A stretch of DNA of 64,000 bases from Escherichia coli. GTDB taxonomy: Bacteria; Pseudomonadota; Gammaproteobacteria; Enterobacterales; Enterobacteriaceae. How positions within the stretch are numbered: the stretch's first letter is position 1; the number at the start of each line of letters is the position of its first letter. Position numbers and translations under genes: made by a program. Location of the stretch: NCBI RefSeq assembly GCF_003790525.1, contig NZ_CP033635.1; one strand, 5' to 3'. Below, in pieces: positions 12,740-55,797 of the stretch. The notes under the pieces were generated by a model, which worked only from the letters and a program-made list of their open reading frames with translations, made no database searches and was not told the DNA's origin.

Positions 12740-13591
12740 TTAAACACGAGGCATATAGGTCTGATTCCGATATTCAATTGGAGTCAGACTTTTTAATTTC
12801 AGGCTAATTCTTCTGCTGTTGTAGTATTCAATATATTCCGTAACAGCATCCTTCAGTTCGCTTATATTACTGAACTCATCAAGATAAAAACACTCCGACT
12901 TTAAGGTTCCAAAGAAACACTCCACCACAGCATTATCCAGACAATTGCCTTTTCTGGACATGCTTTGTTTAATACCATGTTCTTTAAGAATATTTTGATA
13001 TTTTCTCATACGATACTGCCATCCCTGGTCAGAGTGCAGAACAGGATGCTCGTGAGGATTAAGCTTTTTGAATGCCTGATCGAGCATATTCTCAACCATG
13101 TTCATCACTGGTCTTTCCGAAAGGCTGTAAGAAATAACTTCGTTGTTGAAGAGATCTATTACTGGAGACAAATACAGCTTGCGCCCATTGACTGCAAATT
13201 CAGTAACATCGGTAACCCACTTCTCGTTTGGCCGCGTAGCCTTGAAATCTCTTTGGAGAACATTAGGGGCGGTTTGCCCTACCTCTCCTCTGTAAGAGCG
13301 GTATCGCTTGACCTTAATCGCTGCTTTAAGTGAGAGGGTTCCCATCAGGCGCTGAACAGCTTTATGGTTAATCTGTTTCCCTTCTCGATGAAGAGACAGC
13401 GTTACCCTACGGTATCCGTATCGGCCTCTATTCTCGTGATAAATCTCACCAATACGCTTTTTAACGTCCGCATACTTGTCAGGCTTGCTGAGAGCCTTTA
13501 GATGGTAATAAAACGTACTGCGCGGTATCTCCGCAGCCCTGAGAAGCTCATCAAGAGGATAAAACTGCCTTAGCTCGTTGAGTACTTTCAC
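12740..13591 (-). CDS. insK: IS150 transposase OrfB (InsK)
   Basis: 283-aa IS3-family DDE transposase; overlaps insJ by 4 bp as expected for the -1 frameshift fusion. Confidence 0.9.
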
Positions 13592-14109
13592 TTTTTCGTG
13601 GGATGAGCTAAGGCTTTCAGCTTTTTTAGATACATAAGCCGCGTTTCAAGAAATCGAACTTGCCTTTCAAGATCCTCAATACGTCGGTCTTTTGACAGCT
13701 CCAATGCTGATGCCGCTTTTTCTGGATCAACTGATATTGCAATGTTTCTTTTGGTGCCAATCTTGAGCGCGCGTAAACCAGCTTCTCCGCGCTCTTCATA
13801 AACCTTCAGCCACCTGGCTACAGAACCACTACCAGCAAGCATAAAGTGAGCAGCAGCCTGATTAAGGGACATGTGCTGCTCGATCACAGCTTTCACGACC
13901 TTAATACGCAACTCTGGATCAGCACTAACACCTTTAGGTTTGGGAATTAAACCTTTTTCTCCATGTTTTTCATAGAGGGCAACCCATGTCCTGACCTGGG
14001 TTCGGGGGACACCAAAACGTGCCGAGATGATCCTGTAACCATCATCAGTAGTGAAGTAGTGATTCACGACTTCAAGGCGCTTTTCAAAAGGGTATTTTGG
14101 CTTTGACAT
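13588..14109 (-). CDS. insJ: IS150 OrfA (InsJ)
   Basis: 173-aa product MSKPKYPFEKRLEVVNHYFTTDDGYRIISARFGVPRTQVRTWVALYEKHG... matches InsJ of IS150 as recalled. Confidence 0.9.
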   Translation of the reverse strand: MSKPKYPFEKRLEVVNHYFTTDDGYRIISARFGVPRTQVRTWVALYEKHGEKGLIPKPKGVSADPELRIKVVKAVIEQHMSLNQAAAHFMLAGSGSVARWLKVYEERGEAGLRALKIGTKRNIAISVDPEKAASALELSKDRRIEDLERQVRFLETRLMYLKKLKALAHPTKK

Positions 14110-14439
14110 ATCAGGGGCTATTCCATTTCATCGTCCAACAAAATGGGTGCAGTACATTCTCTGTGGAAACAGGGGCGCGCATTAGCTTCTCAACCAGAGA
14201 GTGTCACAAAGACAAATATTGCTGAAAATCGCATTCATCGTTCAGGCGTGAATGCCCGGAGACAAAAGCCGCTGTCCACACAGTCCCCCTCTGACCTGAA
14301 CAAAAAGCATACACACAACAGGCTCACCTGACCCCGAAAAACCATAACTTCAGCAATACCAGTGACACCAGCACGTTACCTCAGTGCCACATCTTCAGAC
14401 CGCGATCAATCTGAAATGTGACTATCGGGGCAATATCCC

Positions 14440-14720
14440 TGCTTTGTGGTACACGATAACCAGAAAACATCCCCTGAACCGCCAGCCAGAAAGACTGGCC
14501 ACAAAAGGGGTAAGCTGAAATCGTTTATGGATTACATCGACATATGCCTGGCAGAGAATGTCCGGAATGACGAGGTTATCTTTGCGGAGATTAAGGCAAT
14601 GGTATACGGGCCGACGTTCCATGCCGCGTTACTACATTCAGCCCGGACGTAAAATGCGCCCGTCAAAAAGAACGGTTCGCTTCGAAACTCAGCCAGGATA
14701 CCACCTCTCCGCCACACCCG
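14440..14720 (+). pseudogene. IS21-family istA 5' remnant
   Basis: Frames give EPPARKTGHKRGKLKSFMDYIDICLAENVRNDEVIFAEIKAMVYG and RYYIQPGRKMRPSKRTVRFETQPGY, matching the IstA N-terminus with a frameshift and loss of the rest. Confidence 0.5.
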
Positions 14721-16024
14721 GGAAGAAGTTGATATGGTGGTTGCCGGACAACAGCGCTCCTGGATTGACTGCTGCATCACTCAACCACGCTGAATATCAA
14801 AGGAGAGCGTTACCGGTTAAAAGAGAAACGTAAAGCTGTGGTGATGACCCAAAACGCAACGCCTGTCAGTGAGGATGAAATGGTGAAAAGCGGACAGCAT
14901 CAGTAACGGAAGTATCTTAGCGGGTACGAAAATGGCAGGATCGTGACATTGACAGAATATCTCCTGATCATCCTGAATGACTGCAGTTGCTGTAGAAAAG
15001 TAAGCTGTCTCCACCCACGGCACCACTTAACAGGCATTCCGTAACTTCCCCCAGACTTACTATGACGCATTATCGGTGCACTGAAAACGGGAGAGTGCGC
15101 TTAAAACCGCAGACCGCATGCGGGTGTTACTGCATGACAGTCTGGCCGTATTGTGAGATGTCGGCAGGAACCGATGTCCGCGCAGGGGGGAACTTCCTGC
15201 AGTACCTGACGCTTCAAATGGTATTAACCGTAGGGTGTTGTTGGTTCCGGATCGCGGAAATGGGAGCACAGGTCTGCTACGGGGTGTACCTCTGACAGTA
15301 AATCCGGCTCGCTCATCTGACAGCCTCTCTCCCGGAAAAGACCAAAAATGAGATCGTCTCCTCAACAGCAGAGAAGAGGTCTTGACAGACAGGCTACATT
15401 GCATACGATTTATGAAGAAAAAGACAGCAAATATGGAGGTTATAGCGGAGAATACCCTACGAAATTCCTATGAAAAACGATTGAAAAAAATATCAAATTC
15501 GATTCGTTTTTATATGCTTTTTGGGAGCGTGGCGATGACGAACTGTTGCATGTGCAGAGGAGAATGCACCCGGAAGCACCAGAATCATCCAGAAAGGCAG
15601 AACGATTACGCATCAAACCAGGAGACAGCAATATCAAGGTAATATACTGATTTAAAATGAATTTACAGCAATACGTGAAAACATTTTTTACTTAAAGGAG
15701 ACAGATGCGCTGAAGAGAGTGCAGGTATTTTTATATAAAAATGAGAAGTTTACGGGATGTATATCCGGCACACTATGACCGGAGAATATCAGTCAAGCTT
15801 AAAAAGACAATAAATACAGTGAGTTAAATACACAGAGAAAACGTAGTATCAGAGGGTACATCTTACAACAGAGACTGAATTTCCGGTTTTTCATAACCGG
15901 CGCATTCCGGAAAGTGCAGGCGGCCCGGAGGTTTTCTGACGCCACTACCTGGTAGATTGTTCTGTACATCATGTACGGAGGTTTTTGTTTGCTTTTTTAA
16001 AATCTGCAAATGTGAGAAAAGCAG

Positions 16025-17188
16025 GTGAGGTGTATTGTGGGAAAGGAACTGGATGATATCTGCACCAGCTGTCCGTATATCGATACTGTAAAACGGCACA
16101 AACAACAGCTCGGTGCCATAGAGGAATATACACAGTGGTTAAAAAAAGAACCACGGGCATCTTATTTTTTTCTGTTCCAGCTGTATACCCGCATTCACAA
16201 TACATTTTTCTCCCAAAAGCAACAACTCCCGTTCACTCCCGGTGGCACTCACTGCCCGGAACCTGATGTCACCCTTCGGGACTTAACGCTTTCCCCTGGC
16301 TACCACAGTGATTATGCCCCTCAACCCATTCCGGAGATGGACAGTTCTGCTGTTGTTCCCCCAACTAATGAAAACACCTCGCCTCCGGAAGATACTCCCG
16401 ACAACACTCCGGCCGGAGGCAATACCGGACAAGCGGAAAAGACCAGAAACGCAGGACTCACACCCATTCCTGAAAAACGTTCAGGAATGCCCCCGGAACA
16501 TCTGCGGTTTGCCACGGGGTTTCCATCGCAACCGAAGATTGCCGGTCCCAGAGAAAAGCCGATGCGCACCGTGCATCCGGATAAAATCTACCGTGAAATT
16601 ATATGGTTCTGCTCCAGTTACCTGCTGAAATCCGGACCAGAGGCTACGAGGACGATTATCAACTCAGTATTCTCTGAATGGGCCAGCATAAACAATGATT
16701 ACCCCTCCCCCTTTTCGTGGGTGGACAGCAGGGACAGTGAACAGTGTGACTGGTTATGGAACGCCATGCAGATCCGGTGTGTGGGAACCCCGCTGAATCC
16801 CCTTACCCCGGAGCAGAAATACTGGTTTGCCTGCGCCACGTTTGATAACTGGGAGGGCTGGAATGAGCAACAGGTACAGTTTTTACTGGAAAGTAATCCC
16901 AGACGGAACAGAGCGAAGTTTACGCAGGTCTCCTTCCAGGCCCCCAGGATTCAGCATAAAGCGATTCTTCTTGATGAGCTGAAAAGTGCCCGGGAGCAAC
17001 AAAAAAGGCGTGATGAACGTGCTGATGGTTCCGTCCCTCTGAAACTGTCCGGAAAAATCCACAAACAGCTTGAAAGTATTGCCCGAAGTCGTGGTGTCCT
17101 CCCAAAAAAACTGCTGAATGAAATGATTGAGCAGGCGTACCATGATTTGGTGGCAACCAGGCAGAACAGCCAAATCGATTCCAGATAA
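16025..17188 (+). CDS. Hypothetical protein with Pro/Thr-rich linker and possible C-terminal ribbon-helix-helix segment
   Basis: 387-aa ORF with GTG start (uncertain); low-complexity PPTNENTSPPEDTPDNTPAGG; C-terminal KLSGKIHKQLESIARSRGVLPKKLLNEMIEQAYHDL resembles an RHH DNA-binding motif. Confidence 0.4.
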   Translation: MRCIVGKELDDICTSCPYIDTVKRHKQQLGAIEEYTQWLKKEPRASYFFLFQLYTRIHNTFFSQKQQLPFTPGGTHCPEPDVTLRDLTLSPGYHSDYAPQPIPEMDSSAVVPPTNENTSPPEDTPDNTPAGGNTGQAEKTRNAGLTPIPEKRSGMPPEHLRFATGFPSQPKIAGPREKPMRTVHPDKIYREIIWFCSSYLLKSGPEATRTIINSVFSEWASINNDYPSPFSWVDSRDSEQCDWLWNAMQIRCVGTPLNPLTPEQKYWFACATFDNWEGWNEQQVQFLLESNPRRNRAKFTQVSFQAPRIQHKAILLDELKSAREQQKRRDERADGSVPLKLSGKIHKQLESIARSRGVLPKKLLNEMIEQAYHDLVATRQNSQIDSR

Positions 17189-17213
17189 TTTCAGACAGAT
17201 ATTATTTCCGTGA

Positions 17214-17256
17214 ATCCCCCGCCACCTTTCCGGTGCGCGGGGTTTTGTCTTTTTTC
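17214..17256 (+). terminator. Putative rho-independent terminator
   Basis: GC stem (cccgc ... gcggg) followed by ttttgtctttttt, just after the 387-aa ORF. Confidence 0.45.
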
Positions 17257-17271
17257 ACCGGGAATACATGT

Positions 17272-18144
17272 ATGAATCCGTCTGATGCCATTGAGGCAAT
17301 TGAAAAACCGCTCTCCTCCCTGCCTTACTCACTTTCCCGTCACATCCTGGAACATCTGCGCAAACTCACCAGTCACGAACCCGTGCCTGGCATTATGGGT
17401 AAAAGCGGGGCCGGTAAATCCTCACTCTGTAATGCGCTGTTTCAGGGGGAGATCACCCCGGTCAGTGATGTTCACGCCGGCACCCGGGAAGTGCAGCGCT
17501 TCCGTCTGAATGGCCATGGTCACAGCATGGTTATCACTGACCTGCCCGGGGTGGGCGAGAGCCGGGACAGGGATGCAGAGTATGAAGCCCTGTACCGTGA
17601 CATTCTGCCCGAACTGGACCTGGTACTGTGGCTGATTAAAGCCGATGACCGTGCCCTGTCTGTGGATGAGTATTTCTGGCGACACATCCTGCACCGGGGA
17701 CATCAGCGGGTACTGTTTGTGGTGATGCAGGCCGATAAAACGGAGCCCTGCCATGAATGGGATATGGCCGGTATTCAGCCTTCTCCCGCACAGGCACAGA
17801 ACATTCGCGAAAAAACGGAGGCGGTATTCCGTCTGTTCCGGCCCGTACATCGGGTTGTTGCCGTATCGGCCCGCACCGGCTGGGAACTGGATACGCTGGT
17901 CAGTGCGCTCATGACAGCACTTCCCGACCATGCCGCCAGTCCCCTGATGACCCGCCTGCAGGACGAGCTGCGCACGGAATCTGTCCGCGCTCAGGCCCGT
18001 GAACAGTTTACCGGTGCGGTGGACCGGATATTTGACACGGCGGAGAGCGCCTGTATTGCCTCTGTTGCACGCACGGTTCTGCGTGCCGTCCGTGACTCGG
18101 TGGTCTCTGTTGCCCGCGCGGTATGGAACTGGATTTTCTTCTGA
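17272..18144 (+). CDS. YeeP/YfjP/YkfA-family prophage GTPase, apparently intact
   Basis: P-loop GKSGAGKSSLCNALF and G3 DLPGVGES; family recalled from CP4-44/CP4-57/CP4-6; start set at the ATG giving MNPSDAIE (ORF extends upstream to a GTG). Confidence 0.8.
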   Translation: MNPSDAIEAIEKPLSSLPYSLSRHILEHLRKLTSHEPVPGIMGKSGAGKSSLCNALFQGEITPVSDVHAGTREVQRFRLNGHGHSMVITDLPGVGESRDRDAEYEALYRDILPELDLVLWLIKADDRALSVDEYFWRHILHRGHQRVLFVVMQADKTEPCHEWDMAGIQPSPAQAQNIREKTEAVFRLFRPVHRVVAVSARTGWELDTLVSALMTALPDHAASPLMTRLQDELRTESVRAQAREQFTGAVDRIFDTAESACIASVARTVLRAVRDSVVSVARAVWNWIFF

Positions 18145-18261
18145 ACCCGGTGGTGATGTACCAGGCTGTTGTTACAGATTTTTAACTCCATGAAAACACT
18201 ATGCAAACGCAGCCATACCCGGGTTGTCCCCTTGCGTTGTGTTTCTCAAGTTAATAGAATG

Positions 18262-18305
18262 CATCGATCGTTACTATCATATCGATCGTTATAAACGATC
18301 GTTTG
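18262..18305. promoter_or_regulatory. Cluster of three CGATCG-core repeats upstream of the dynamin operon (putative operator)
   Basis: catcgatcgtta (18262-18273), atcgatcgtta (18281-18291), and the 12-bp perfect palindrome aaacgatcgttt (18294-18305); 57 bp upstream of the dynamin start. Confidence 0.3.
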
Positions 18306-18361
18306 TAGTAAATGACCTCCTCCGTGGTTGTCATGAAAATGCGTCTTAGGAAGGTTAAATA

Positions 18362-20758
18362 ATGCACGAAAAGAACATCGCCCTGCTTTGTGATGAAGCC
18401 GACCGACTTTTGCAACTGAACATTAATCTGCTCCGGCAAATGGTTGAGGAGCCAGATGTGTTATCTGACAGTAAGAACGAAAACAGACTGCTTTTTGATA
18501 AACAGAAAGCACTGAAAAGAATTGAGGAGCTGGAGGGCGAACAAATCAAAACCGCCCGCAGGGAGATGGTGCTGGCTGTTGTCGGCACGATGAAAGCAGG
18601 CAAATCAACCACCATCAACGCCATTGTGGGGCAGGAAATTCTGCCTAACCGTAACCGCCCCATGACCTCTGTACCGACGCTCATCCGCCACGTTCCCGGA
18701 AAAACTGAGCCGGTTCTCCATCTGGAACATATTCAGCCTGTCCGCAATTTATTAATCACACTGCAGGAAAAACTCGCCACCCCGGCAGGACAGCAGGTCG
18801 CACAGACCCTGCAGCAAACCGGGGATACCCGCGAACTGCTGGATATTCTGACGGATGATGGCTGGCTCAAAAATGAATACCACGGGGAGGAGGAAATCTT
18901 TACCGGACTGGCATCGTTAAACGATCTGGTTCGTCTTGCTGCGGCAATGGGGACTGAATTTCCTTTTGATGAATACGCAGAAGTGCAGAAACTGCCGGTG
19001 ATCGACGTGGAATTCAGCCATCTGGTGGGGATGGATGCATGCCAGGGAACACTCACACTGCTGGATACCCCCGGCCCTAATGAGGCCGGACAACCGCAGA
19101 TGGAAGTGATGATGCGGGATCAACTGCAGAAAGCCTCTGCGGTTCTGGCTGTGATGGATTACACCCAGATGAACTCAAAAGCGGATGAAGACGTCCGTAA
19201 AGAGCTTAATGCCATTGCTGACGTATCAGCCGGCCGCCTGTTTGTACTGGTCAATAAATTTGATGAGAAAGACCGCAATGGCGATGGGGCAGATGCCGTA
19301 CGCCAGAAAGTTCCGGCAATGCTGAACAGCGATGTGCTGCCCGCCTCCCGCGTTTATCCCGGATCCTCACGCCAGGCATACCTGGCTAACCGTGCGCTTC
19401 ATGAGTTACGGAAAAACGGAACCCTTCCTGTTGATGAAGCCTGGGTCGATGATTTTATCAGAGGTGCCTTCGGTTGCATGAAAAAAGAATACGTCTGTAA
19501 AGACAGTGAACTGGCAACTGAAGGGGCGACAGACCTGTGGGAAGGCTCACTTATCGATCAACTGATAACGGAAGTCATACAGAGCTCACATTCCAGAGCT
19601 GCGGCACTGGCGGTTGACTCTGCCGCCGCAAAACTGATGCAGAATGCAGAAAATATCAGTGAATACCTGTTGTTACGCCATCAGGGGCTACAGCAAAGCA
19701 TTCAGTCACTGCAGTCGCATATCACCAGCCTGCTTGCGGATATCCGGGAAATCGCGGACTGTCAGGAGCAGATGACCACTGATGTCAGAATGGCCATGGA
19801 GGAGATCGATACTAAAACCCGGGAATTACTGACGGGGGTCTGCACCTCACTGGAAGAGGAGCTGAATGACTATTTCAGAAGCGGTAAACGCAAAGAACAG
19901 CAAATGCTGGAGGAAGAAGACGCAGAACAACGAAGGTCTCAGTCCGGATTATGGGGGAAAATTTCTCAATGGTCCGGTATCAACAACCAGGGCCGGGAGG
20001 ATTACAGGAAACGAGATTTTGCCCCGGACAGCCCCGAAATAAAATTCAGTGATCGCAGGGAAGCCCTTGAACTGATGACGCAAATCGAATCGACCGTGAC
20101 CAGCCTGCACCGTGAGGCTGAAGCACAGTTCCGGCCTGAGCTGGAGAAAATCGTCAGCGGGATTGAAACAGGTTTTCGTGGCACGGCCCTGTACGCCACA
20201 GAAAACATTGCCGGTCGCATCAATGCCCGCCTGGAGGATGAGGGCTTTACCGTAAAAATCAGTTTTCCGGCAGTCAGCCAGTTACAGACCCGGCTCGCGG
20301 TAAAAATAAATCTGAGTGCGCTTATGGAGGAAAGAACGGAGACCGTCACCCGTCGCCGTCGGCAGAGTGGCGTATGGGGAACCGTTTGTCGATGGTTTGG
20401 CACCAGTGACCTGGGCTGGGAAAACTATGACGAGGATGTGAGTCGCAGCGTGATCAATATCAACAAGGTCAGAGAGGAAGTTATGTCACTGACCCGGGCA
20501 TATTTCGGGGAGCTGCAGGCATCCATTGAGCAGGATATTAACCAGCCCGTCCGCCAGGAAATCGATGCCTTTTTCTGCGCATTCAGGGAGAAAGTTGAAC
20601 AACTGCGTAACACGCTGATTCAGAGCTCTGAAGATCATAAACGCGATCAGCAGGCGCAGGAACGGCTTACCGGGCGACTTCAGGCATTAAATGAAAGGGT
20701 TCCTGAGCTCATTACTGACAGTAAGGCGCTGAGGGAAGAGCTGGAGACAATGCTGTGA
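18362..20758 (+). CDS. Bacterial dynamin-like GTPase, CrfC/YjdA-like
   Basis: 798 aa; G1 GTMKAGKST, G3 DTPGPNE, G4 NKFD; N-terminal block REMVLAVVGTMKAGKSTTINAIVGQEILPNRNRPMT matches E. coli CrfC as recalled; long helical C-terminal stalk; RBS aggaagg. Confidence 0.9.
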   Translation: MHEKNIALLCDEADRLLQLNINLLRQMVEEPDVLSDSKNENRLLFDKQKALKRIEELEGEQIKTARREMVLAVVGTMKAGKSTTINAIVGQEILPNRNRPMTSVPTLIRHVPGKTEPVLHLEHIQPVRNLLITLQEKLATPAGQQVAQTLQQTGDTRELLDILTDDGWLKNEYHGEEEIFTGLASLNDLVRLAAAMGTEFPFDEYAEVQKLPVIDVEFSHLVGMDACQGTLTLLDTPGPNEAGQPQMEVMMRDQLQKASAVLAVMDYTQMNSKADEDVRKELNAIADVSAGRLFVLVNKFDEKDRNGDGADAVRQKVPAMLNSDVLPASRVYPGSSRQAYLANRALHELRKNGTLPVDEAWVDDFIRGAFGCMKKEYVCKDSELATEGATDLWEGSLIDQLITEVIQSSHSRAAALAVDSAAAKLMQNAENISEYLLLRHQGLQQSIQSLQSHITSLLADIREIADCQEQMTTDVRMAMEEIDTKTRELLTGVCTSLEEELNDYFRSGKRKEQQMLEEEDAEQRRSQSGLWGKISQWSGINNQGREDYRKRDFAPDSPEIKFSDRREALELMTQIESTVTSLHREAEAQFRPELEKIVSGIETGFRGTALYATENIAGRINARLEDEGFTVKISFPAVSQLQTRLAVKINLSALMEERTETVTRRRRQSGVWGTVCRWFGTSDLGWENYDEDVSRSVININKVREEVMSLTRAYFGELQASIEQDINQPVRQEIDAFFCAFREKVEQLRNTLIQSSEDHKRDQQAQERLTGRLQALNERVPELITDSKALREELETML

Positions 20759-21660
20759 CTTCACCATTTATTCAACAAATTGCTGATAACCGGGTATGTC
20801 AGGTACTCACCTGTCTTCCTGAAAAATTTGTGGTTGATTTCGCAAACGGAATCGATGTTGCACAGGAGCATATCCGCACGGCCGGAGAGCGCACGTTCTT
20901 CCGGCGTTTAAAAGAGGGGCTGACCGGCGAAGGCGCTGCACGGCAGAATGCCATCAATGCGTCGCTTGCACAGGGCGTTGAGGCGTCCCTGCGCTGGCTG
21001 ACGGAGATGACAACGTCACTTGCCACCACAAACTACGCGATTACCCGGGTAAACGACAGGGTCAGTTCACTGGTCAGTGATACAGCCAGGCTGGCGCATT
21101 ATTCCGCAGATACGCGGGAGCAGTTACTCACCCTGGCCGATCAGGTTCACCATAAACTGAATCATCTTGAAGAAAAACTCCACCGTGTTGACCAGGTTCA
21201 GCGGGCGCAGTTACATCTTGAGCAGATATTCTCATGGTGGAGCGCCGGGCGATATGCGTCATTTTCCCCTGCCGGACGTTGTTATGTGGCACTTGAAGAG
21301 CTTCGCTGGGGCGCGTTTGGTGATGTGATACGTCAGAGCGAAACAGGCCAGGTTAACCAGCTACTGGATATTCTCAGACATAAAGCATTAACGCAGATGG
21401 CACAGGAGAGTGGCGGTAGTGCAACCGTGCGTCTGAACACTCTGGACTGGCTTGGTGGTCAGGGCCGGGAGCAGGCAGATAACGAGTGGCATGACGCGAT
21501 TAACTGGCTGGGAGACTGGTGCAGTGAAGAGCAGCATCCGGTGATCTGGTCAACCACGCAGGCTGCAGAACACTTACCGGTTCGCATGCCTCGCCTCTGC
21601 TCTGCAGAACGCCTCTCTGAAAGTATGGTCGATGAAATATTTCAGAAGGGGGCTGCATGA
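20755..21660 (+). CDS. Dynamin partner protein (YjcZ-like, by synteny with crfC-yjcZ)
   Basis: 301-aa ORF; GTG start overlaps the dynamin stop (GTGA); mostly helical; family assignment rests on position, not recalled sequence. Confidence 0.7.
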   Translation: MTSPFIQQIADNRVCQVLTCLPEKFVVDFANGIDVAQEHIRTAGERTFFRRLKEGLTGEGAARQNAINASLAQGVEASLRWLTEMTTSLATTNYAITRVNDRVSSLVSDTARLAHYSADTREQLLTLADQVHHKLNHLEEKLHRVDQVQRAQLHLEQIFSWWSAGRYASFSPAGRCYVALEELRWGAFGDVIRQSETGQVNQLLDILRHKALTQMAQESGGSATVRLNTLDWLGGQGREQADNEWHDAINWLGDWCSEEQHPVIWSTTQAAEHLPVRMPRLCSAERLSESMVDEIFQKGAA

Positions 21661-22727
21661 GTACAGAAATGAAAACGGGGCTGGTGCTGTCCGGTGGCGG
21701 GGCGGTGGGCGCTTATCAGGCGGGAGTGGTTAAGGCACTGGCAGAGTGTGGTACACAGATCAGCATGGTTTCAGGGGCCAGCATTGGCGCATTCAATGGT
21801 GCCATTATCGCGGCCTCTACCGATCTGTCAGAAGCTGCCGTACGCCTGGAGGCGCTCTGGGATCATCTGGGGAATAATCAGGTGCTGTCGGTAAACAGAT
21901 TGGTTTACTTTTCATTGCTGAAAAAATTGTTCCAGGCAATGAACCTCTGCCAGATCCCCGGACGTGCAGGAGCACTGCTTACGACGCTTCTTCGCCATAT
22001 ATCGACAATCAACGGGTTTGACAATCTGATGGCTCAGCCGTTGTTGTCAGATGAGCCCCTGACAGCGCTGATGGATCATTATCTTGATACTGATGCTCTG
22101 GCAGACGGGCTACCGCTGTATGTGTCGCTGTACCCCACAGAAGGGGGCATGCAGGATATTATTGACTGCATTCGTGCTGAACTGGGTGTCGGAACCACGA
22201 AAAACGCCGTTTTTCAGCATATCCAGAGCCTGCCCCGCGGACAGCAGAAAGAGGCTCTGCTTGCGTCAGCCGCGCTGCCCCTGCTGTTCCGTCCCCGTGA
22301 GGTTCAGGGGACAATGTTCGGTGATGGTGGTATGGGAGGATGGCGAAATATGCAGGGAAATACCCCTGTGACGCCTCTGGTCGATGCCGGATGCAATATG
22401 GTGATTGTGACGCATCTGAGTGACGGTTCTTTATGGGATCGCCAGGCTTTTCCGGACACCACAATCCTTGAGATCCGTCCCCGGAAAAGGCTGAAATATG
22501 CAGGTGATGGTGGCAACAGCGGCGGTCTGCTCAGTTTTACATCGGCACATACCGACGCCTGGCGTCAGCAGGGCTATGAAGACACGATGCTGGCGATGGA
22601 GCATATCCGGAAACCGCTGGCAGCACGTCAGGCACTGACCCGGTCAGAGGCGGTATTGCAGAAAAGCCTGGATATAACGGAAGAGGCAGATTTGGCACTG
22701 AGAAACGCGATGGCCCGGATTAAATAA
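21657..22727 (+). CDS. Patatin-like phospholipase
   Basis: 356 aa; Gly-rich oxyanion SGGGAVGAYQAG, lipase GxSxG as GASIG, catalytic Asp in FGDGGM; ATG overlaps the upstream stop (ATGA). Confidence 0.85.
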   Translation: MSTEMKTGLVLSGGGAVGAYQAGVVKALAECGTQISMVSGASIGAFNGAIIAASTDLSEAAVRLEALWDHLGNNQVLSVNRLVYFSLLKKLFQAMNLCQIPGRAGALLTTLLRHISTINGFDNLMAQPLLSDEPLTALMDHYLDTDALADGLPLYVSLYPTEGGMQDIIDCIRAELGVGTTKNAVFQHIQSLPRGQQKEALLASAALPLLFRPREVQGTMFGDGGMGGWRNMQGNTPVTPLVDAGCNMVIVTHLSDGSLWDRQAFPDTTILEIRPRKRLKYAGDGGNSGGLLSFTSAHTDAWRQQGYEDTMLAMEHIRKPLAARQALTRSEAVLQKSLDITEEADLALRNAMARIK

Positions 22728-48731: not shown

Positions 48732-50138
48732 TTAATCCAGCCATTCAGTATGGAACACACCTTCTTTATCAATGCGCTTATAAGTATGCGCCCCGAAATA
48801 GTCACGCTGTGCCTGGATCAGGTTCGCAGGCAGAACAGCGGCACGGTAGCTATCGTAATAGGCAACCGCAGCGGCGAAGGTCGGAACCGGGATACCGTTC
48901 TGTACTGCATAAGCGACGACATCGCGCAGCGCCTGCTGGTAGTCATCGGCAATTTGCTTGAAGTACGGGGCCAGCAGCAGGTTAGCGATCTGCGGATTTT
49001 CGGCATATGCATCGGTGATTTTCTGCAGGAACTGCGCACGGATGATGCAGCCAGCACGGAAAATCTTCGCGATTTCGCCGTAGTTCAGATCCCAGTTGTA
49101 CTCTTCAGACGCAGCACGCAGCTGAGAGAAGCCCTGAGCGTAAGAAACGATTTTGCCCAGATACAGCGCACGACGAACTTTTTCGATGAACTCAGCCTTG
49201 TCGCCAGCTGGCTGCGCTTGCGGACCAGAGAGAACTTTAGATGCGGCAACGCGCTGATCTTTCAGAGAAGAGATATAACGTGCAAACACAGACTCGGTAA
49301 TCAGCGACAGCGGTTCTCCGAGATCCAGCGCGCTCTGGCTGGTCCATTTACCGGTACCTTTGTTAGCCGCTTCATCCAGGATCACATCAACCAGGTAGTT
49401 ACCGTCTTCATCTTTTTTAGTGAAGATGTCTTTGGTGATGTCGATCAGGTAGCTGCTCAGTTCACCGTTATTCCACTCGGTAAAGGTCTGTGCCAGTTCT
49501 TCGTTAGAGAGATTCAGGCCGCCTTTAAGCAGAGAATAGGCTTCAGCAATCAGCTGCATATCACCGTATTCAATACCGTTGTGAACCATCTTAACATAGT
49601 GACCTGCGCCATCGGCACCAATATAGGTAACGCATGGCTCCCCGTCTTCAGCCACTGCGGCGATTTTGGTCAGGATCGGTGCAACCAGTTCATAGGCTTC
49701 TTTCTGTCCGCCAGGCATAATGGAAGGACCTTTCAGCGCACCTTCTTCACCACCGGAAACACCGGTACCGATAAAGTTAAAGCCTTCTGCAGAAAGCTCA
49801 CGGTTACGACGAATGGTGTCCTGGAAGAAGGTGTTACCACCATCAATGATGATGTCACCTTTATCGAGGTATGGCTTGAGGGAATCAATAGCAGCATCCG
49901 TGCCTGCACCTGCTTTCACCATTAACAGGATGCGACGAGGCGTTTCCAGAGATTCAACAAACTCTTTCACCGTATAGTAAGGAACCAGTTTCTTGCCTGG
50001 ATTTTCGGCAATAACTTCTTCCGTCTTTTCACGGGAACGGTTGAAAATAGAGACGGTATAACCACGGCTTTCGATGTTGAGCGCAAGGTTGCGCCCCATC
50101 ACTGCCATACCGACGACGCCAATCTGTTGCTTTGACAT
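48732..50138 (-). CDS. gnd: 6-phosphogluconate dehydrogenase (decarboxylating)
   Basis: 468 aa [27 protein letters not shown]... matches Gnd. Confidence 0.95.
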
Positions 50139-50327
50139 TGTTTACTCCTGTCTGAGGTGCTCACCGCTGCAAATAAGCGGCTGAATATGAGTAACGGGTT
50201 TACTTCTAATATATTTAGGAAAGGCTTATCTCTCTATGTCCCAAAAACTAAACCTTTTGGATACATCGACTATCAGATCTAAAAGACATACATTTTATAA
50301 TATCAAAACCTAATAAAACCATTCTAA

Positions 50328-51083
50328 TTAAAGTCTCTTAGCAAGAGCTCTTACTGAATAAATAAAAAAAAGAACTAATGACTTGAATAATGAAAAAGAC
50401 AATACTCTTCTATAAATATTCCATTGCCACATAGCTGCAGTGAACTTATTTGAGGACAACCCCGTATTATGTATATAATATCTGGCAAGATTTTTCTGTA
50501 TGCAATAAACCAGCTTTGCTTTTTTTACTATTGTTAACCACATTAGGTAATCTTCATGACCAATTTCCTGTTGATATACTTTCCCTATCTGAGTTGAGTC
50601 ATAAATACCAGTTAAGTTACCAATATGATTAGATTGCAGCATATTATTATATGTAATAACTTCCTTAAACCTTCTTTCTTTTATTACATTTGTATCAGCA
50701 TAAAAAACCTCATAGTTTGAACAAACAACTTTATAATTTCCAGCACTCAATATTTTCAGTTGTTCTTCGAGTTTAGTCTCAAACCAAACATCATCACTAT
50801 CACAAAATGCAATATATCTACCATTACAAGCAGCAATCCCAACATTTCTAGCCGAAGATACTCCCTTACCATTTCGATTTAGTAAATAAACAATACGTTC
50901 ATCGATAATAGACTTAATAATATGTTCTGTTGAATCCGACGAATTATCATTGATTATATATAATTTAAAATCCTCATACGTTTGTTTTAAAATTGACAAA
51001 ATACTATCTTTAATAGTTTCTTCAGCATTATAAGCTGGCATAATTATTGATACTGTTTCATTACCCATAAAAAGCCCCATCAT
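50328..51083 (-). CDS. Family 2 glycosyltransferase (O-antigen)
   Basis: IIMPAYNAEETI and DSDD motifs; AT-rich; start uncertain among three N-terminal Met codons. Confidence 0.8.
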   Translation of the reverse strand: MMGLFMGNETVSIIMPAYNAEETIKDSILSILKQTYEDFKLYIINDNSSDSTEHIIKSIIDERIVYLLNRNGKGVSSARNVGIAACNGRYIAFCDSDDVWFETKLEEQLKILSAGNYKVVCSNYEVFYADTNVIKERRFKEVITYNNMLQSNHIGNLTGIYDSTQIGKVYQQEIGHEDYLMWLTIVKKAKLVYCIQKNLARYYIHNTGLSSNKFTAAMWQWNIYRRVLSFSLFKSLVLFFIYSVRALAKRL

Positions 51084-51092
51084 TATTCAAAA

Positions 51093-52175
51093 TTAGAACA
51101 AGTATGATTTATAATAAAATTCTGCGATAGGAAACAGAATAACCTTTAATAGATACGGAATAAAACAGTATAATAATGAGAGATACAAACAAACGAAGTA
51201 TCTATTCTTAACAGTGTATTTAATAACATAAATTATCGGGATTATATAAAATATCACAAAATAGTAGTTAACCCTTGAAATAAAATCAAAACTGAGCATT
51301 AACAAATAAACATTCACCGTTAAAGCCCACATACCAATTAACTTTCGCTCATTATCTTTTATAACAAAAACCTTTAGTTTTAATAAGATAAGGAATAGCA
51401 AATTAAATGGAATCCAATACATTTTAGTTAGTACATTCATTATACTCACAGAACTTTCATCGAATGAGGATAAATAATGTGAGTAATAGGGGAATAAATT
51501 TTGCACTATATAATAAATAATTTGCTGAAGATAAGAGAAAAGAAACAATAAAAAAGTCAACACATAAATTTTAAAAGCATGTTTACACGCAAAAAAATAC
51601 GTCTTATCTGGAATTACGAGAAAACAGAAACCAATCAAAGCAGAGCGATGAAAACCTAAAGCAGCAACCATTAATATGAAAGATAACAATAATTTCCCTC
51701 TAAACTTATAGAGAATTGATATTGCAAACAAATAAATTGAAAATGATGCTCTTATTATATTCATCTGGGTATGAAATAAATTAGTAACAACCCAAAAAAG
51801 AAAAAAAACCAAAACAAGAGAATAACCATAGTTTTTCCATAACTGAAAAACAATAACAAACACCAATAAAGATTGTAATAAAGCAGTTAACGCAATAAAA
51901 CCTTTGAATCCCCATCCAGTCAGTTGATATAGCCTCATATATCCATAAAAGAGATATTCCTTATTTTGATAAAAGGTATCGAGTTCATTAGCATTATTAT
52001 ATATATTTTGATAGCTAAAATAATCTGTTCCAACACCGTATTGAAATGCTGGCAACAGAGTCATAAAAAAAACGCATATGCCCCCGATAATTATTTTCCC
52101 ATAAGGAATACGATTATATGCATTAAACAAAAACATATAAAAAAGCACAATAGTATTAATTATAATATATATCAT
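51093..52175 (-). CDS. wzy: O-antigen polymerase Wzy (EpsG-like)
   Basis: 360-aa highly hydrophobic polytopic protein, AT-rich, inside the O-antigen cluster. Confidence 0.7.
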   Translation of the reverse strand: MIYIIINTIVLFYMFLFNAYNRIPYGKIIIGGICVFFMTLLPAFQYGVGTDYFSYQNIYNNANELDTFYQNKEYLFYGYMRLYQLTGWGFKGFIALTALLQSLLVFVIVFQLWKNYGYSLVLVFFLFWVVTNLFHTQMNIIRASFSIYLFAISILYKFRGKLLLSFILMVAALGFHRSALIGFCFLVIPDKTYFFACKHAFKIYVLTFLLFLFSYLQQIIYYIVQNLFPYYSHYLSSFDESSVSIMNVLTKMYWIPFNLLFLILLKLKVFVIKDNERKLIGMWALTVNVYLLMLSFDFISRVNYYFVIFYIIPIIYVIKYTVKNRYFVCLYLSLLYCFIPYLLKVILFPIAEFYYKSYLF

Positions 52176-52858
52176 TTTTCTGCAATAAAAAGACGTTCAG
52201 CTTCGATAGAACTAGAGTTTAAATTTACAGGATGAGAAAAGTATTGACCATAAAATACATTATCCAGTTTCGCATTTCTTACAATGTAACTCCAGTCATC
52301 ACAAAAGAAACTATTTTCTTCCATTAACCTCAGAATTCTCTCAGCGCCTTTAATATCCACACAATAACAGCATGTCCTATATAACCAACGATGTGTACCT
52401 AATATTACTTTTCGCACCCCACATATTGATTTTCTCCCCATTATGACACGACTAAAGCTTTTTAGACCATCCTGTCCACCCAAAATATAGACACTTGATG
52501 AGCAGAATGAATTAATCATTTCGTCCAAATATTTAACATTTTCCTTGGGCAAAACGTCATCTTCCAAAACCACCAACCATTTCCTTCCACTCGCCAAAAA
52601 TTCCGTTAAAGCTTTTTTATGACTCAAGAAACATCCCAATTCCGACGGAGTTAAAAAACCTCTTCCAAACATCTTTGAGGACCTAATTTTAAATAAAGAA
52701 AAGTATTTTTCTGCCAATAATTTCCGTCCATCAATAGCATGAGAAACACGACATTCTATGTCATACTTCGCCATTTCATTTTTTAATTTATCTCTCCTTT
52801 CATTATGTTGAGGTAATGATATTATACAAAAGTCAACAAGTTTTCTTTTCATTCTCAC
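52172..52858 (-). CDS. Family 25 glycosyltransferase (LPS/O-antigen)
   Basis: N-terminal CIISLPQHNERRDKL... pattern typical of GT25 (Lic2B/LgtB-like). Confidence 0.65.
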   Translation of the reverse strand: MRMKRKLVDFCIISLPQHNERRDKLKNEMAKYDIECRVSHAIDGRKLLAEKYFSLFKIRSSKMFGRGFLTPSELGCFLSHKKALTEFLASGRKWLVVLEDDVLPKENVKYLDEMINSFCSSSVYILGGQDGLKSFSRVIMGRKSICGVRKVILGTHRWLYRTCCYCVDIKGAERILRLMEENSFFCDDWSYIVRNAKLDNVFYGQYFSHPVNLNSSSIEAERLFIAEK

Positions 52859-53664
52859 TTCCTTTTACTGGACAGTTGTTTTAATCTTTTATAAAAATAT
52901 GAAAGCATATATCTTATAACTGTTATGAATGCAAGACAAAATGCATTATTTAGGGACGTTCTGTAAACCTCCAGAGCAAGCTCAACTATTTGTTTTGGTG
53001 TATATTTATATCCCCGTCCATAGGATATTTTAATTTGAGACCCTCCCAGAGTTCTCACAGAAATTAGCGACATAACAGAAATTAGTTTTAGTTTTAATGG
53101 TATATCTTCCCCCCAAGTCAAATATCTTATTTTATAAGCATCAATGATTTTATTTCTACGATACAACGTATTAGATTGATTCCAACCAAGAGTAAATTGC
53201 TTTGGATACCCTAAACACTCTATACATTCTTGTATTAATCCTCTGTTATATTTTTTTATTGTGAAAATATTACCTGTCTCGTTTTTACAATTAAACTCTT
53301 CCACATAATCACTTCTAAAGACGATGGCATCAACCTCATTATTTTCTAATAAATAATTAACACCCCAATCAAGAGCAAATTCAGCAATATAATCATCAGT
53401 ATCAAGAAAAAAACAAAATTCTGTATCTGAATCCAATAAGCCTACATATCTTGCGTGAGAAGGGCCTTGATTAAGAGTATAGGTGTAATTACACCCGTAA
53501 TTATTACAAATAATTTTATTTTTGCGCGCTTCATCAGAAACTGAACCATCATCAATTACAAAAATCTTACACTGCTTATAGCTACTGATTATTTTAATAT
53601 TTTCCTCTAATATTATGCTCGAATTATAAGTTGGTATTATTATTGATATTCTTTTATTATTCAT
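52855..53664 (-). CDS. Family 2 glycosyltransferase (O-antigen)
   Basis: ISIIIPTYNSS and DTDD motifs. Confidence 0.8.
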   Translation of the reverse strand: MNNKRISIIIPTYNSSIILEENIKIISSYKQCKIFVIDDGSVSDEARKNKIICNNYGCNYTYTLNQGPSHARYVGLLDSDTEFCFFLDTDDYIAEFALDWGVNYLLENNEVDAIVFRSDYVEEFNCKNETGNIFTIKKYNRGLIQECIECLGYPKQFTLGWNQSNTLYRRNKIIDAYKIRYLTWGEDIPLKLKLISVMSLISVRTLGGSQIKISYGRGYKYTPKQIVELALEVYRTSLNNAFCLAFITVIRYMLSYFYKRLKQLSSKRK

Positions 53665-53672
53665 TCTATTGC

Positions 53673-54467
53673 CTATTTATTGTATTTTACGTATATGGCT
53701 TTCTTTGTGTTATAAAGGTTTTTAACATAGGATAACCGTTTAACATGCAAGTAAAGGGGTTTAATGATAGTTTTTACCCTGACGGTTGATTTATCCCACA
53801 TTAACTGTTCATATAATTCGCCATCACAATATTTCAGACCCAGTGAACGTTTATATAAAAACAGCTCATTGCTCATCCACTTCCCAAAAAACTCTAACCC
53901 TCGAAAAACGACACCATCATAATTTTTTGCTATCTGCTTTTGCAAAATATCAACACCGTATGCCGAAAAAATATAATGGGCATCGACTTTCATTAAATAA
54001 TCACAATCACCTAAAGAAAAACTAAAATTATAAAATTCGGCCAGTGAACCATCTCCCTTTGTCACCTGATCTTTATACCCTTCTCCAGCAATAGCGAGAT
54101 TTTTATCATAAGAGTAAAGTTGTATAGAGCAAACATCAGCTAATTGATTCGATAATCTTTCTACAATATCTCTTGTATTATCTGTAGAATTATTATCTAC
54201 AACAATTATTTGTGATGCTAACCCCGAAATAGACAATATAGATGCCTCTATATATTCAGATCCGTTTTTGACTCTATATATAACAGAGACACTTGGTATT
54301 TTCCTCTTATATTCATTCTGTTTTCTTAGCTTAGCTGCAACATAATCATCAAAATCTAACCGATTGGAGTACTTCTTATCGTTTTTCGCAGATAAAAAGG
54401 AAATAGTAAAAAGATAGTAATGAAAAGATAAAATTAACTTTTTTAAAATAGAATATAAACTCATCAC
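53673..54467 (-). CDS. Glycosyltransferase, GT2-like
   Basis: VSVIYRVKNGSEYIEASILSI...VVDNNSTDNT pattern; DXD-like VDAH. Confidence 0.6.
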   Translation of the reverse strand: MMSLYSILKKLILSFHYYLFTISFLSAKNDKKYSNRLDFDDYVAAKLRKQNEYKRKIPSVSVIYRVKNGSEYIEASILSISGLASQIIVVDNNSTDNTRDIVERLSNQLADVCSIQLYSYDKNLAIAGEGYKDQVTKGDGSLAEFYNFSFSLGDCDYLMKVDAHYIFSAYGVDILQKQIAKNYDGVVFRGLEFFGKWMSNELFLYKRSLGLKYCDGELYEQLMWDKSTVRVKTIIKPLYLHVKRLSYVKNLYNTKKAIYVKYNK

Positions 54468-55738
54468 TTTATCACTCGATTAAACAATAAAATACAGTAA
54501 ATCAATGGGATTATATTAATCAATGACACGACAATTAACTTAGACACAGCTATTCCAACAACACCAAATATGTTAGTCAGATAAAATGTTATAACAAGAG
54601 ACGGTATAAGCATATATATATGCAATTTACTTATAAAACCTTGCCGATCACTCATATTTAAAAAAACATATACAGGGCAAAATATTGCATTAATAATCTG
54701 CGTCATAACTAAAATAATTAACACTTCGCTAGCATTACTGTATTGAACACCAAATATAGATAATATCAGCCCTGAAAAAAAGGGAAACAGAAGAGCCATT
54801 AAAACACATGGTATCATTATGAAGAACATAGCTTTTTTAGTTAGCTCTTTTATTTCATTCATTTTACTTTGGCTGTATAAACTGGCGACCTTAGGTGCCA
54901 GAATTGTGCTAATTGACATTGCAAATAAATTTATAACCAAGGATATTCTATCAGACACAGCAATAATAGCGACATCAGCAGCTGGGAGCAACAAACCGGA
55001 AAGTACAACATAAGATTGAACAATCAGCATTCCTAATGAGTTACCAATGAAATACTCTGATAATTCTTTCAGTCTAAACGGTATTGACTCTGTTTCTAAC
55101 CGATTGAAATCGTCCCTAAATTTATAATACGAGTATACCCCCCCCCCTCCTCCAATAAGAATAATTGAGAAGAAGTATGATAAAGACACCAGTAAAACAC
55201 TTTCATTTTTAATCAGAACAATAAGTAATACAAAAAAAATAAACAATAAGGGTTGAAATATATACTGCAGAACAACACTAAAAGTGACAAGACCTTGAGA
55301 CTGTAAAAAGGAATATAACAATATATTTACTGACGATGATATTATCAACAGAATCGCCAAACACCATGTATTTCGTAATAATAATTGTGGCGAAAAATAA
55401 TGAATTATAGGTATTAAAATGATAGATAAGATAATACTGGATATAACACTCCGTTTTATGCATCTAAGAAAAAAAACGCCTCGTGCTTTTAATGCATATT
55501 TAACTGAGGCACATTTTTTCAAAATTAAATTATTTTGTCCTAAAGAGGATAGGGACGATATTATTCCAGTTACTGATAATAGGAAGAAAACCCCACCAGC
55601 CTCACTCATATTGAGCGTTCTTGATATCATCACACTCGTTGACAGCGCAAGTATAGCGCCGAATATCCTCAACACAAATACAGTTTTAATTGTAAACATT
55701 AACTTCTCGTTATTTACCCAAAGACCTCTTTGCAACAA
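54464..55738 (-). CDS. wzx: O-antigen flippase Wzx
   Basis: 424-aa polytopic membrane protein; first gene after the JUMPstart; contains an internal G10 coding-strand homopolymer. Confidence 0.8.
   Translation of the reverse strand: MLQRGLWVNNEKLMFTIKTVFVLRIFGAILALSTSVMISRTLNMSEAGGVFFLLSVTGIISSLSSLGQNNLILKKCASVKYALKARGVFFLRCIKRSVISSIILSIILIPIIHYFSPQLLLRNTWCLAILLIISSSVNILLYSFLQSQGLVTFSVVLQYIFQPLLFIFFVLLIVLIKNESVLLVSLSYFFSIILIGGGGGVYSYYKFRDDFNRLETESIPFRLKELSEYFIGNSLGMLIVQSYVVLSGLLLPAADVAIIAVSDRISLVINLFAMSISTILAPKVASLYSQSKMNEIKELTKKAMFFIMIPCVLMALLFPFFSGLILSIFGVQYSNASEVLIILVMTQIINAIFCPVYVFLNMSDRQGFISKLHIYMLIPSLVITFYLTNIFGVVGIAVSKLIVVSLINIIPLIYCILLFNRVIK
55138..55147. repeat. Homopolymeric C10 tract (G10 on the wzx coding strand)
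   Basis: Ten consecutive C residues inside wzx, encoding part of GGGGG in IILIGGGGGVYSYY. Confidence 0.9.
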
Positions 55739-55786
55739 ATAATAGGGGGGAGGGTATAGATACTACCCCGCAAGACGCAAAAAACA

Positions 55787-55797
55787 ACGCTACCGCC
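55787..55797 (-). promoter_or_regulatory. ops element (GGCGGTAGCGT) of the JUMPstart region, RfaH-dependent antitermination site
   Basis: Plus-strand acgctaccgcc is the reverse complement of GGCGGTAGCGT, 49 bp upstream of wzx on the transcribed strand. Confidence 0.7.

What the first reader, a model, noticed from the sequence alone, without database searches (positions are those of the whole stretch)
16025..17188. Hypothetical 387-aa protein with low-complexity linker and RHH-like tail upstream of the GTPase and dynamin operon
The ORF has a Pro/Thr/Asn-rich linker and a C-terminal segment resembling a ribbon-helix-helix DNA-binding domain, and is followed by a terminator. It is a candidate regulator of the adjacent GTPase or dynamin operon, for example a binder of the CGATCG repeats. 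The GTG start is uncertain.
Basis: inference. Interest (0 to 1): 0.35.

Follow-up and report, generated by a model that had tools for sequence, protein, structure and literature searches.

The report
Island protein with ribbon-helix-helix tail
This is a real, unnamed gene found in about a third of E. coli genomes; its protein ends in a predicted ribbon-helix-helix DNA-binding domain and belongs to the backbone of a common type of genomic island, but it is very unlikely to bind the CGATCG repeats, which are the known Dam/OxyR switch of the Ag43 gene.

Summary
The ORF is real. The conserved start is the GTG at 16037 (383 aa), not 16025. It lies in a CP4-44-type E. coli island and occurs in 1963 of 5426 complete E. 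coli genomes, always annotated "hypothetical". It matches no Pfam, NCBIfam or PADLOC family. An exhaustive search found a small family in Enterobacterales islands.

The hairpin after the stop codon is real. It is also part of a conserved 5' leader of the next gene, a YeeP-like GTPase, whose promoter overlaps the ORF's end.

The long form of the family always precedes this GTPase. A short form sits in small islands that have no GTPase, and the dynamin operon is not a conserved neighbour. The CGATCG repeats are homologous to the agn43 Dam/OxyR switch.

Most likely it is a dimeric DNA-binding regulator of the island. Its target is unknown. It is a new member of a known kind, of modest interest.

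The parts
16037..17188 (+).
16023..16032 (+). Shine-Dalgarno-like AGGTGAGGTG, 6 nt before the GTG at 16037
   Evidence: read directly from the sequence
16073..16222 (+). N-terminal helical hairpin (aa 13-62) with the conserved WLKxxPRAxxFYLF motif; first copy of a W...C.W.W-type repeat
16250..16468 (+). Pro/Thr-rich disordered variable loop (aa 72-144, pLDDT below 50)
16487..16522 (+). Short conserved segment MPPEHLRFATGF (aa 151-162; A159 and G161 invariant; pLDDT about 90)
16577..16936 (+). Central Trp-rich helical domain (aa 181-300; motifs PFSWVDxxDxEQCxWLW and ATFDNWEGW); fold unassigned
16943..17023 (+). Long basic helix (aa 303-329; KSAREQQKRRDE, family consensus KAWxQKxxR) leading into the RHH
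17027..17161 (+). Predicted ribbon-helix-helix domain (strand aa 333-337, helix 339-352, helix from 356)
17179..17205 (+). Promoter of the downstream GTPase, overlapping the stop codon (TAA 17186-88): -35 TTCCAG, 15-nt conserved spacer, -10 TATTAT at 17200-05
   Evidence: the K-12 paralogues yfjP and ykfA have RpoD-SELEX promoters TTGAAA-15-TATCAT (PMC3946193)
17217..17256 (+). GC-rich hairpin (17217-42) plus T-run: terminator of the ORF and part of the GTPase 5' leader
17272..18144 (+). YeeP/YfjP/YkfA-like GTPase, the conserved downstream neighbour of the long subfamily
15457..15472 (+). CTACGAAATTCCTATG: two CTAYR boxes 11 bp apart; candidate operator (unproven). The only match to the pattern in the 64-kb window

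Best explanation
The gene encodes a cytoplasmic, sequence-specific DNA-binding protein that belongs to the backbone of P4-integrase/AlpA/YfjJ-type genomic islands.

Proposed mechanism (inferred): two copies pair through the C-terminal ribbon-helix-helix. Their two beta-strands form the ribbon that enters the DNA major groove, and the preceding basic helix adds backbone contacts, as in MatP. The protein then binds short repeated sites in the island's control region. There it regulates, most probably represses or autoregulates, the rightward gene block that starts with itself. The Trp-rich helical body, built from the N-terminal hairpin plus aa 151-300, would be the partner-, signal- or oligomerisation-binding part. 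The Pro/Thr-rich loop would be a dispensable spacer.

Shown here: the gene is real and conserved; the family and its island context exist; an RHH fold is predicted.

Inferred only: DNA binding, the target site and the regulatory direction.
For: Gene and family:
- The ORF is conserved, and an exhaustive search finds a small family.
- The gene is present in 1963 of 5426 complete E. coli genomes.

RHH tail:
- A tail-only profile against PDB sequences hits MatP (E 0.009), CopG, HP0222, ORF56, SvtR, Reg576 and MazE7.
- Family members hit RHH-type models at sub-threshold level: NCBIfam RepA (5 members, 3.5e-4) and LexA-regulated YbfE (7e-5); PHROG Arc-like repressor (5 members); Pfam RepB-RCR_reg, RHH_1 and RHH_7.
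- The AlphaFold monomer shows an extended segment followed by two helices at aa 331-382.

Position in the island:
- In every non-E. coli locus examined, the gene is the first gene of the rightward unit. It is transcribed divergently from the leftward AlpA/YfjJ (Rep-like) genes across a 400-800-bp AT-rich intergenic region.
- A CTAYR-N6-CTAYR repeat with an 11-bp period occurs only upstream of the gene in all 8 long-subfamily loci. It is absent in the short-subfamily loci, whose beta-strand residues differ.
Against: - No curated RHH model reaches its threshold, and the window protein itself scores E >= 0.03 everywhere.
- The tandem model has only moderate confidence (pLDDT 63), and the linked construct is artificial.
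- The candidate operator pattern was derived post hoc from some of the same loci. AlpA or another protein could be its binder.
- In E. coli the candidate operator lies 580 nt upstream of the gene, inside a 95%-conserved non-coding block that contains two terminator-like hairpins.
- No expression data were available.
- dN/dS of 0.4-0.66 indicates only mild constraint among E. coli alleles.
Confidence: 0.42

Rival explanations
1. It is an antitoxin-like or adaptor partner of the YeeP-like GTPase. The helical body would bind and restrain, or localise, the GTPase, and the C-terminal RHH would tether the pair to DNA. This is the architecture of HicB-type antitoxins.
For: - Adjacency to a GTPase of about 290 aa is kept even at 22-34% protein identity.
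- The RHH sits at the C-terminus, as in HicB (weak PHROG hit).
- GTPase expression looks tightly restrained: a terminator lies in its leader, and its SD is sequestered in an outer stem.
Against: - A terminator and a separate promoter lie between the two genes.
- The K-12 genes yfjP and ykfA are intact GTPases that have the same leader but lack this gene.
- The 288-aa subfamily occurs in islands with no GTPase.
Confidence: 0.17
2. It is an accessory DNA-binding factor for island replication or mobilisation. It would bind an origin or oriT-like site and assist the YagK/YfjJ (inovirus Gp2-like, HUH-type) protein, as TraY, NikA or CopG/RepA-type RHH proteins do on plasmids.
For: - The gene always co-occurs with YagK_YfjJ_C / REP_ORF2-G2P genes, and in the minimal island L020 it is transcribed divergently from one.
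- The best NCBIfam and Pfam sub-threshold hits are plasmid replication regulators: RepA, RepC IncL/M, RepB-RCR_reg, ORF56 and BfmA.
- The upstream repeats have 11-bp phasing.
Against: - The hits only reflect the shared RHH fold.
- No origin or nick site was identified.
- TraY ranks high because the model was built as a tandem.
Confidence: 0.2
3. It is a MatP-like architectural protein. It would bind several sites and bridge or condense island DNA rather than regulate a promoter.
For: MatP is the top solved-structure relative in three searches:
- sequence profile, E 0.3 with the full profile and 0.009 with the tail profile;
- Foldseek, ranks 1-3;
- hhalign, which aligns the basic helix plus the RHH (50-51 columns).
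Against: - None of these is significant (Foldseek E 3.5; hhalign probability 15-23%).
- The Pfam MatP models do not hit any family member.
- The four-helix bundle does not align.
- No matS-like repeated palindrome was found.
Confidence: 0.08
4. It is a decaying or functionless island ORF, and the RHH resemblance is fortuitous.
For: - Many frameshifted or truncated copies are in the databases (P0015, P0017, P0020, P0021).
- dN/dS is 0.4-0.66.
- The upstream region is disrupted by IS150 and an IS21 remnant.
Against: - The full-length ORF is kept in 1963 genomes.
- Homologues at 22-36% identity keep the motifs and the tail.
- The RHH signal appears in independent searches.
Confidence: 0.08

Closest known systems
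MatP (macrodomain Ter protein; PDB 4D8J, 3VEA, 7NYW)
   Same: A basic helix runs directly into an RHH of the same spacing: 20 residues from the A(R/W) motif to the end of the strand. MatP is the best PDB relative both by sequence profile and by Foldseek.
   Different: Similarity is limited to about 50 residues and is not significant. The Pfam MatP_N and MatP_C models do not match. This protein carries a 300-aa N-terminal part with a disordered loop. No coiled-coil tail or matS-like sites were found. It is encoded on an island, not in the core chromosome.
CopG/Arc/MetJ-type RHH repressors, including plasmid RepA/CopB, YbfE, ORF56 and phage Arc-like repressors
   Same: Predicted beta-alpha-alpha unit that dimerises through paired strands. 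The strand carries a K-x-(S/T) pattern. Many members have a G-x-S/T-x-x-E turn before helix B.
   Different: Those proteins are 45-90 aa, with the RHH at or near the N-terminus. Here the RHH is the last 50 aa of a 383-aa protein. All matches are below the curated cut-offs.
HicB-type antitoxins (partner-binding domain followed by a C-terminal RHH)
   Same: Domain order, and position upstream of a partner-like gene.
   Different: There is no HicB fold. The gene is not co-transcribed with its neighbour. Each partner can occur without the other.
TraY, AvtR and DndE (two RHH units in one chain)
   Different: The match arises because two tails were joined artificially. The natural protein has one RHH unit.

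Membership tests
Ribbon-helix-helix (RHH) superfamily | A beta-strand followed by two helices, with alternating hydrophobic and polar residues in the strand | tested here: met
   AlphaFold monomer: extended aa 330-338, helices 339-352 and 356-382. Family consensus xIKLTxxxxKKLxxIA...LxxLI.
Ribbon-helix-helix (RHH) superfamily | Two subunits pair their strands into an antiparallel ribbon, and the overall fold resembles solved RHH dimers | tested here: met
Ribbon-helix-helix (RHH) superfamily | Match to a curated RHH family model above its threshold | tested here: not met
   Only sub-threshold hits were found: Pfam RHH_1 0.054, RHH_7 0.035, RepB-RCR_reg 0.02; NCBIfam RepA 3.5e-4 and YbfE 7e-5 for other members; nothing for the window protein.
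Ribbon-helix-helix (RHH) superfamily | Sequence-specific DNA binding through the ribbon | not testable with these tools
   Needs EMSA, ChIP or a co-structure.
MatP family (Pfam PF06303 and PF17414) | Match to the MatP N-terminal and C-terminal family models | tested here: not met
   No MatP family appears among the hits of the 25 members at E <= 0.1.
MatP family (Pfam PF06303 and PF17414) | A four-helix bundle homologous to MatP's, N-terminal to the RHH | tested here: not met
   hhalign aligns only the basic helix plus the RHH (38-51 columns, probability 15-23%). A W.W/GW motif resemblance seen by eye is only a lead.
MatP family (Pfam PF06303 and PF17414) | Binding to matS palindromes; C-terminal coiled coil | not testable with these tools
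   No matS-like sites were searched for systematically. Helix B extends to aa 382, but no separate coiled coil is predicted.
Type II toxin-antitoxin antitoxin | Co-transcribed with, and obligatorily paired with, its toxin gene | tested here: not met
   A terminator and the GTPase's own promoter lie between the genes. yfjP and ykfA lack this gene. The short subfamily lacks the GTPase.
Death-fold (pyrin/CARD-like six-helix bundle) | Significant structural match of the helical body to death-fold domains | tested here: inconclusive

The most novel reading that the evidence does not exclude
The protein and the adjacent YeeP-type GTPase form a previously undescribed two-part island module. In this reading a DNA-anchored RHH protein, with a death-fold-like or otherwise new Trp-rich helical domain, recruits or gates an Era/dynamin-like GTPase on island or invading DNA, for island maintenance or defence. 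The double-locked GTPase leader would keep the effector silent until it is triggered.
Probability: 0.1. Interest if true: 0.6.

Novelty: new member of a known kind. Interest (0 to 1): 0.3.

Why it matters
The gene sits in roughly 36% of complete E. coli genomes, including APEC O1, Nissle 1917 and the type strain, and has no name or family. Assigning it a DNA-binding RHH gives a concrete handle on how CP4-44/CP4-57-type islands are controlled, for example by ChIP-seq or EMSA. These islands carry Ag43, CbtA/CbeA, anti-restriction genes and dynamin/patatin operons.

The work also removes a false lead. The CGATCG repeats belong to the Dam/OxyR switch. This in turn suggests that the dynamin-RdcB-patatin operon is phase-variable in many strains.

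Tried and rejected
Searches that found nothing for the protein:
- Pfam, NCBIfam and PADLOC gave no hit. PHROGs gave only E >= 0.03.
- Rfam found nothing at E <= 1 in window 14000-18500.

Searches that added little:
- The word-indexed homologue search with the family profile added almost nothing beyond E. coli and Pectobacterium.
With a closer alignment it returned only 4 loci: Serratia, Hafnia, Brenneria and Enterobacter.
- The afdb50 fold library was unavailable.
- A search for MatP homologues, meant for a profile-profile test, listed only near-identical E. coli MatP. No diverse MatP profile could be built, and hhalign had to use single sequences.
- RNAalifold on the GTPase leader gave no structure because MAFFT mis-aligned the hairpins. 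The single-sequence folds were used instead.
- One look-up of encoding contigs failed.
- A literature search for the RefSeq protein accessions found nothing.

Ideas rejected:
- The CGATCG repeats as the target of this protein.
- The two N-terminal cysteines (CxxC) as a zinc site. There are only two, and they are absent in distant homologues.
- The 69-86-aa ORF at 15382-15642 as a gene. Its differences from L003 are mostly non-synonymous.
- The imperfect palindrome at 15990-16023 as an operator. Its arms are not kept in L003.
- Alternative-frame and antisense ORFs inside the gene. None has support.

Full report
**Where the window comes from.** The region is 100% identical to E. coli chromosomes such as APEC O1, ATCC 11775 and SMS-3-5. 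It lies in a CP4-44-type island next to yeeA/tmaR. The RefSeq gene order in APEC O1 is: inovirus-Gp2/YfjJ-like, AlpA-type HTH, a 200-aa hypothetical, IS150, IS21 remnants, this ORF (hypothetical protein WP_000514103.1), a GTPase family protein, dynamin family protein, RdcB/YjcZ, patatin, then DUF932, anti-restriction, YeeS, YeeT, CbeA and CbtA. K-12's own CP4-44 lacks the gene.

**Observation.**
- The ORF 16025-17188 exists.
- The conserved start is the GTG at 16037. RefSeq uses it. Homologues start MGKELDD or MEKELDD there. GAGG lies 6 nt upstream. The in-frame GTG at 16025 results from a 5-nt duplication that is missing in the homologous locus L003.
- The gene is present at >= 80% coverage in 1963 of 5426 complete E. 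coli genomes, always annotated "hypothetical protein".
- dN/dS against the 77%-identical allele in L003 is 0.40 (N-terminus), 0.63 (linker), 0.66 (central) and 0.42 (tail). The linker is only 46% identical, with dS 0.74 against about 0.08 in the flanks, so that segment is a fast-diverging or recombinant stretch.
- Residues 67-176 are 19% Pro and 11% Thr.

**Family.**
- No Pfam, NCBIfam or PADLOC model matches.
- An exhaustive phmmer scan of 1.84 billion representatives gave only 60 hits. Many are E. coli alleles or fragments of them, and about two dozen are more distant relatives at roughly 25-44% identity, most of them full-length.
- Their alignment (A1) shows these parts in order:
  - an N-terminal motif WLKxxPRAxxFYLF;
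  - a variable spacer;
  - a short PPExLxFANG segment;
  - PFSW(V/L)DxxxEEQCxWxWxYM;
  - ATFDxWxGW;
  - a basic helix KAWxQKxxR;
  - a tail xIKLTxxxxKKLxxIAxxxxxxxxxxLxxLI.
- The W...C.W.W unit is repeated: twice in the long form and three times in some 288-314-aa members such as P0075.
- Known hosts are Enterobacterales: E. coli, Pectobacterium, Serratia, Hafnia, Brenneria and Enterobacter.

**Structure.**
- AlphaFold with A1 gave mean pLDDT 76.8 and pTM 0.67. Helices are confident at aa 13-62 and 181-383, and there is a confident short segment at 151-160. pLDDT is below 50 for aa 72-144. The "linker" is therefore best described as a long disordered loop within one helical body.
- Foldseek against the PDB ranked MatP first to third, but at E 3.5-6.1.

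**The RHH tail.**
- The family profile against PDB sequences ranked MatP first, together with SvtR.
- A tail-only profile (A5) gave MatP E 0.009, CopG 0.11, HP0222, ORF56, SvtR, Reg576 and MazE7, nearly all RHH proteins.
- Scans of all 25 members gave RHH-type sub-threshold hits:
  - Pfam RepB-RCR_reg, RHH_7 and RHH_1;
  - NCBIfam RepA, YbfE, RepC, BrnA and ORF56;
  - PHROG Arc-like repressors.
- Because an RHH strand only forms in a dimer, I joined two tails (aa 301-383) with a Gly/Ser linker for all 24 homologues (A4) and predicted the fusion. DSSP gives strands at aa 333-337 in both copies, each followed by two helices (pLDDT 63).
The tail is predicted to be an RHH, at moderate confidence.
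- hhalign against MatP aligns the basic helix plus the RHH only (38-51 columns, probability 15-23%). MatP is the nearest solved analogue, not a demonstrated family.

**Neighbourhood.**
- In every long-subfamily locus, an MMR_HSR1 GTPase of 287-291 aa follows 83-168 nt downstream. This holds at 77% identity (L003-6), 34% (L007-9), 29% (L010), 22% (L012) and 27% (Serratia, Hafnia and Brenneria).
- What follows the GTPase varies: Ag43 then dynamin in L003, a WYL protein in L007, and dynamin directly in the window.
- Outside E. coli the gene is transcribed divergently from the AlpA/YfjJ-like genes.
- The short 288-aa subfamily sits in small islands with AlpA, YagK/YfjJ_C, a DUF7828 zinc ribbon (L019) and, in L020, a P4-type integrase. 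These islands have no GTPase at all.
- The family is therefore an island backbone component, and the link to the GTPase is positional rather than obligatory.

**The terminator and the GTPase leader.**
- The hairpin 17217-17242 plus T-run is real.
- The same layout precedes the GTPase in all loci, and also precedes K-12 yfjP, which has no upstream family gene. The layout is: a conserved motif AATAATTTCAGACAGATATTAT (window 17184-17205, overlapping the stop codon), a GC hairpin with T-run, and an outer stem that pairs the sequence after the motif with the GTPase Shine-Dalgarno.
- Shimada et al. list RpoD-holoenzyme SELEX promoters TTGAAA-15-TATCAT for yfjP and ykfA (PMC3946193). This is exactly the conserved motif.
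- By homology, the GTPase here has its own promoter (-10 TATTAT at 17200-05) inside the 3' end of the ORF.
- The hairpin would both terminate the ORF's transcript and sit in the GTPase 5' leader.
- The anti-SD segment lies at or upstream of the expected start. By inference, read-through transcripts would be translationally silent.

**The proposed target.**
- The repeats at 18262-18305 align, GATC for GATC, with the region between yeeP and flu in K-12 and with the GTPase-Ag43 spacer in L003.
- That region is the agn43 switch, where Dam methylation of GATC sites blocks OxyR binding (PMC3764049).
- In the window flu is absent and the switch abuts the dynamin gene. This junction occurs in 1980 of 5426 genomes.
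- The repeats already have a well-established binder, and the dynamin operon is not a conserved neighbour of the ORF.

**Candidate operator.**
- A pattern CTAYR-N6-CTAYR (11-bp period) occurs upstream of the gene in all eight long-subfamily loci: -54 to -175 outside E. coli, and about -575 to -580 in E. coli (window 15457-15472). It occurs once per locus, apart from a tandem pair in L007, and nowhere else in 175 kb on either strand. About 5 chance hits were expected. It is absent in the short-subfamily loci.
- The pattern was defined post hoc, and AlpA is an alternative binder, so this is a lead rather than a result.
- In E. coli the 680 nt upstream of the gene are 95% identical between alleles. 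They contain a promoter-like TTGACA-16-TACGAT (15382-15409) and two terminator-like hairpins. Further upstream are an IS21 remnant and IS150.

**Verdict.** It is wrong about the target, and probably wrong about the dynamin operon. The most likely role is a dimeric RHH regulator of the island control region (confidence about 0.4). The rivals are a replication or mobilisation accessory factor, a GTPase partner, and a MatP-like architectural protein. It is a new, unnamed member of a known kind, and interest is modest.

Noticed in passing
window 18262-18305 (and up to the dynamin start at 18362): The three CGATCG(TT) repeats are homologous to the agn43/flu Dam/OxyR phase-variation switch. Here flu is missing, and the switch lies directly upstream of the dynamin-like/RdcB-like/patatin operon. 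That operon may therefore be phase-variable. The same junction occurs in 1980 of 5426 complete E. coli genomes.
   Followed up: partly
window 17179-17271; also L018 9617-9710 (K-12 yfjP), L007, L010, L012, L014-L017: The YeeP/YfjP-type GTPase genes share a conserved 5' region. It consists of a promoter with an unusually conserved spacer (TTCAGAYAGATATYAT), then a terminator-like hairpin nested in an outer stem that sequesters the Shine-Dalgarno. The outer stem differs in sequence between loci but keeps its pairing. This could be an attenuator, or a block on read-through translation.
   Followed up: partly
window 15360-16036: About 680 nt of non-coding DNA upstream of the ORF are 95% identical to L003, more conserved than much of the ORF. 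They contain a promoter-like TTGACA-16-TACGAT (15382-15409) and terminator-like hairpins at 15706-15723 and 15960-15980. This may be a small RNA or a long leader. Rfam has no match.
   Followed up: partly
window 15382-15642: A 69-86-aa Cys-rich ORF (…NCCMCRGECTRKH…) overlaps the CTAYR boxes and stays open in L003. The differences between the two are mostly non-synonymous, so it is probably not a gene.
   Followed up: yes
window 14470-14940 and 12740-14109: An IS21-family remnant (istA/istB fragments) and a complete IS150 separate the AlpA/200-aa genes from the ORF. The E. coli arrangement upstream of the gene is therefore secondary.
   Followed up: yes
window 18362-22727: The dynamin-like protein (798 aa) scores 556 bits against the CrfC/RdcA model, below its cut-off. 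It is followed by a YjcZ/RdcB-family protein and a patatin phospholipase, so this is an island paralogue of the K-12 crfC-yjcZ pair with an added lipase. It has only weak PADLOC matches to LeoBC and to phospholipase effectors.
   Followed up: no
window 16250-16468 (aa 72-144): The disordered loop shows dS 0.74 against about 0.08 in the flanking parts of the same gene when compared with L003. One natural allele (P0002, 319 aa) has lost residues 117-180, which covers the C-terminal part of this loop and about 36 residues after it. This suggests recombination or a hypervariable cassette.
   Followed up: partly
window 50000-56000: A block of about 6 kb has 27-33% GC and strongly negative GC skew, unlike the rest of the window. 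It was not examined.
   Followed up: no
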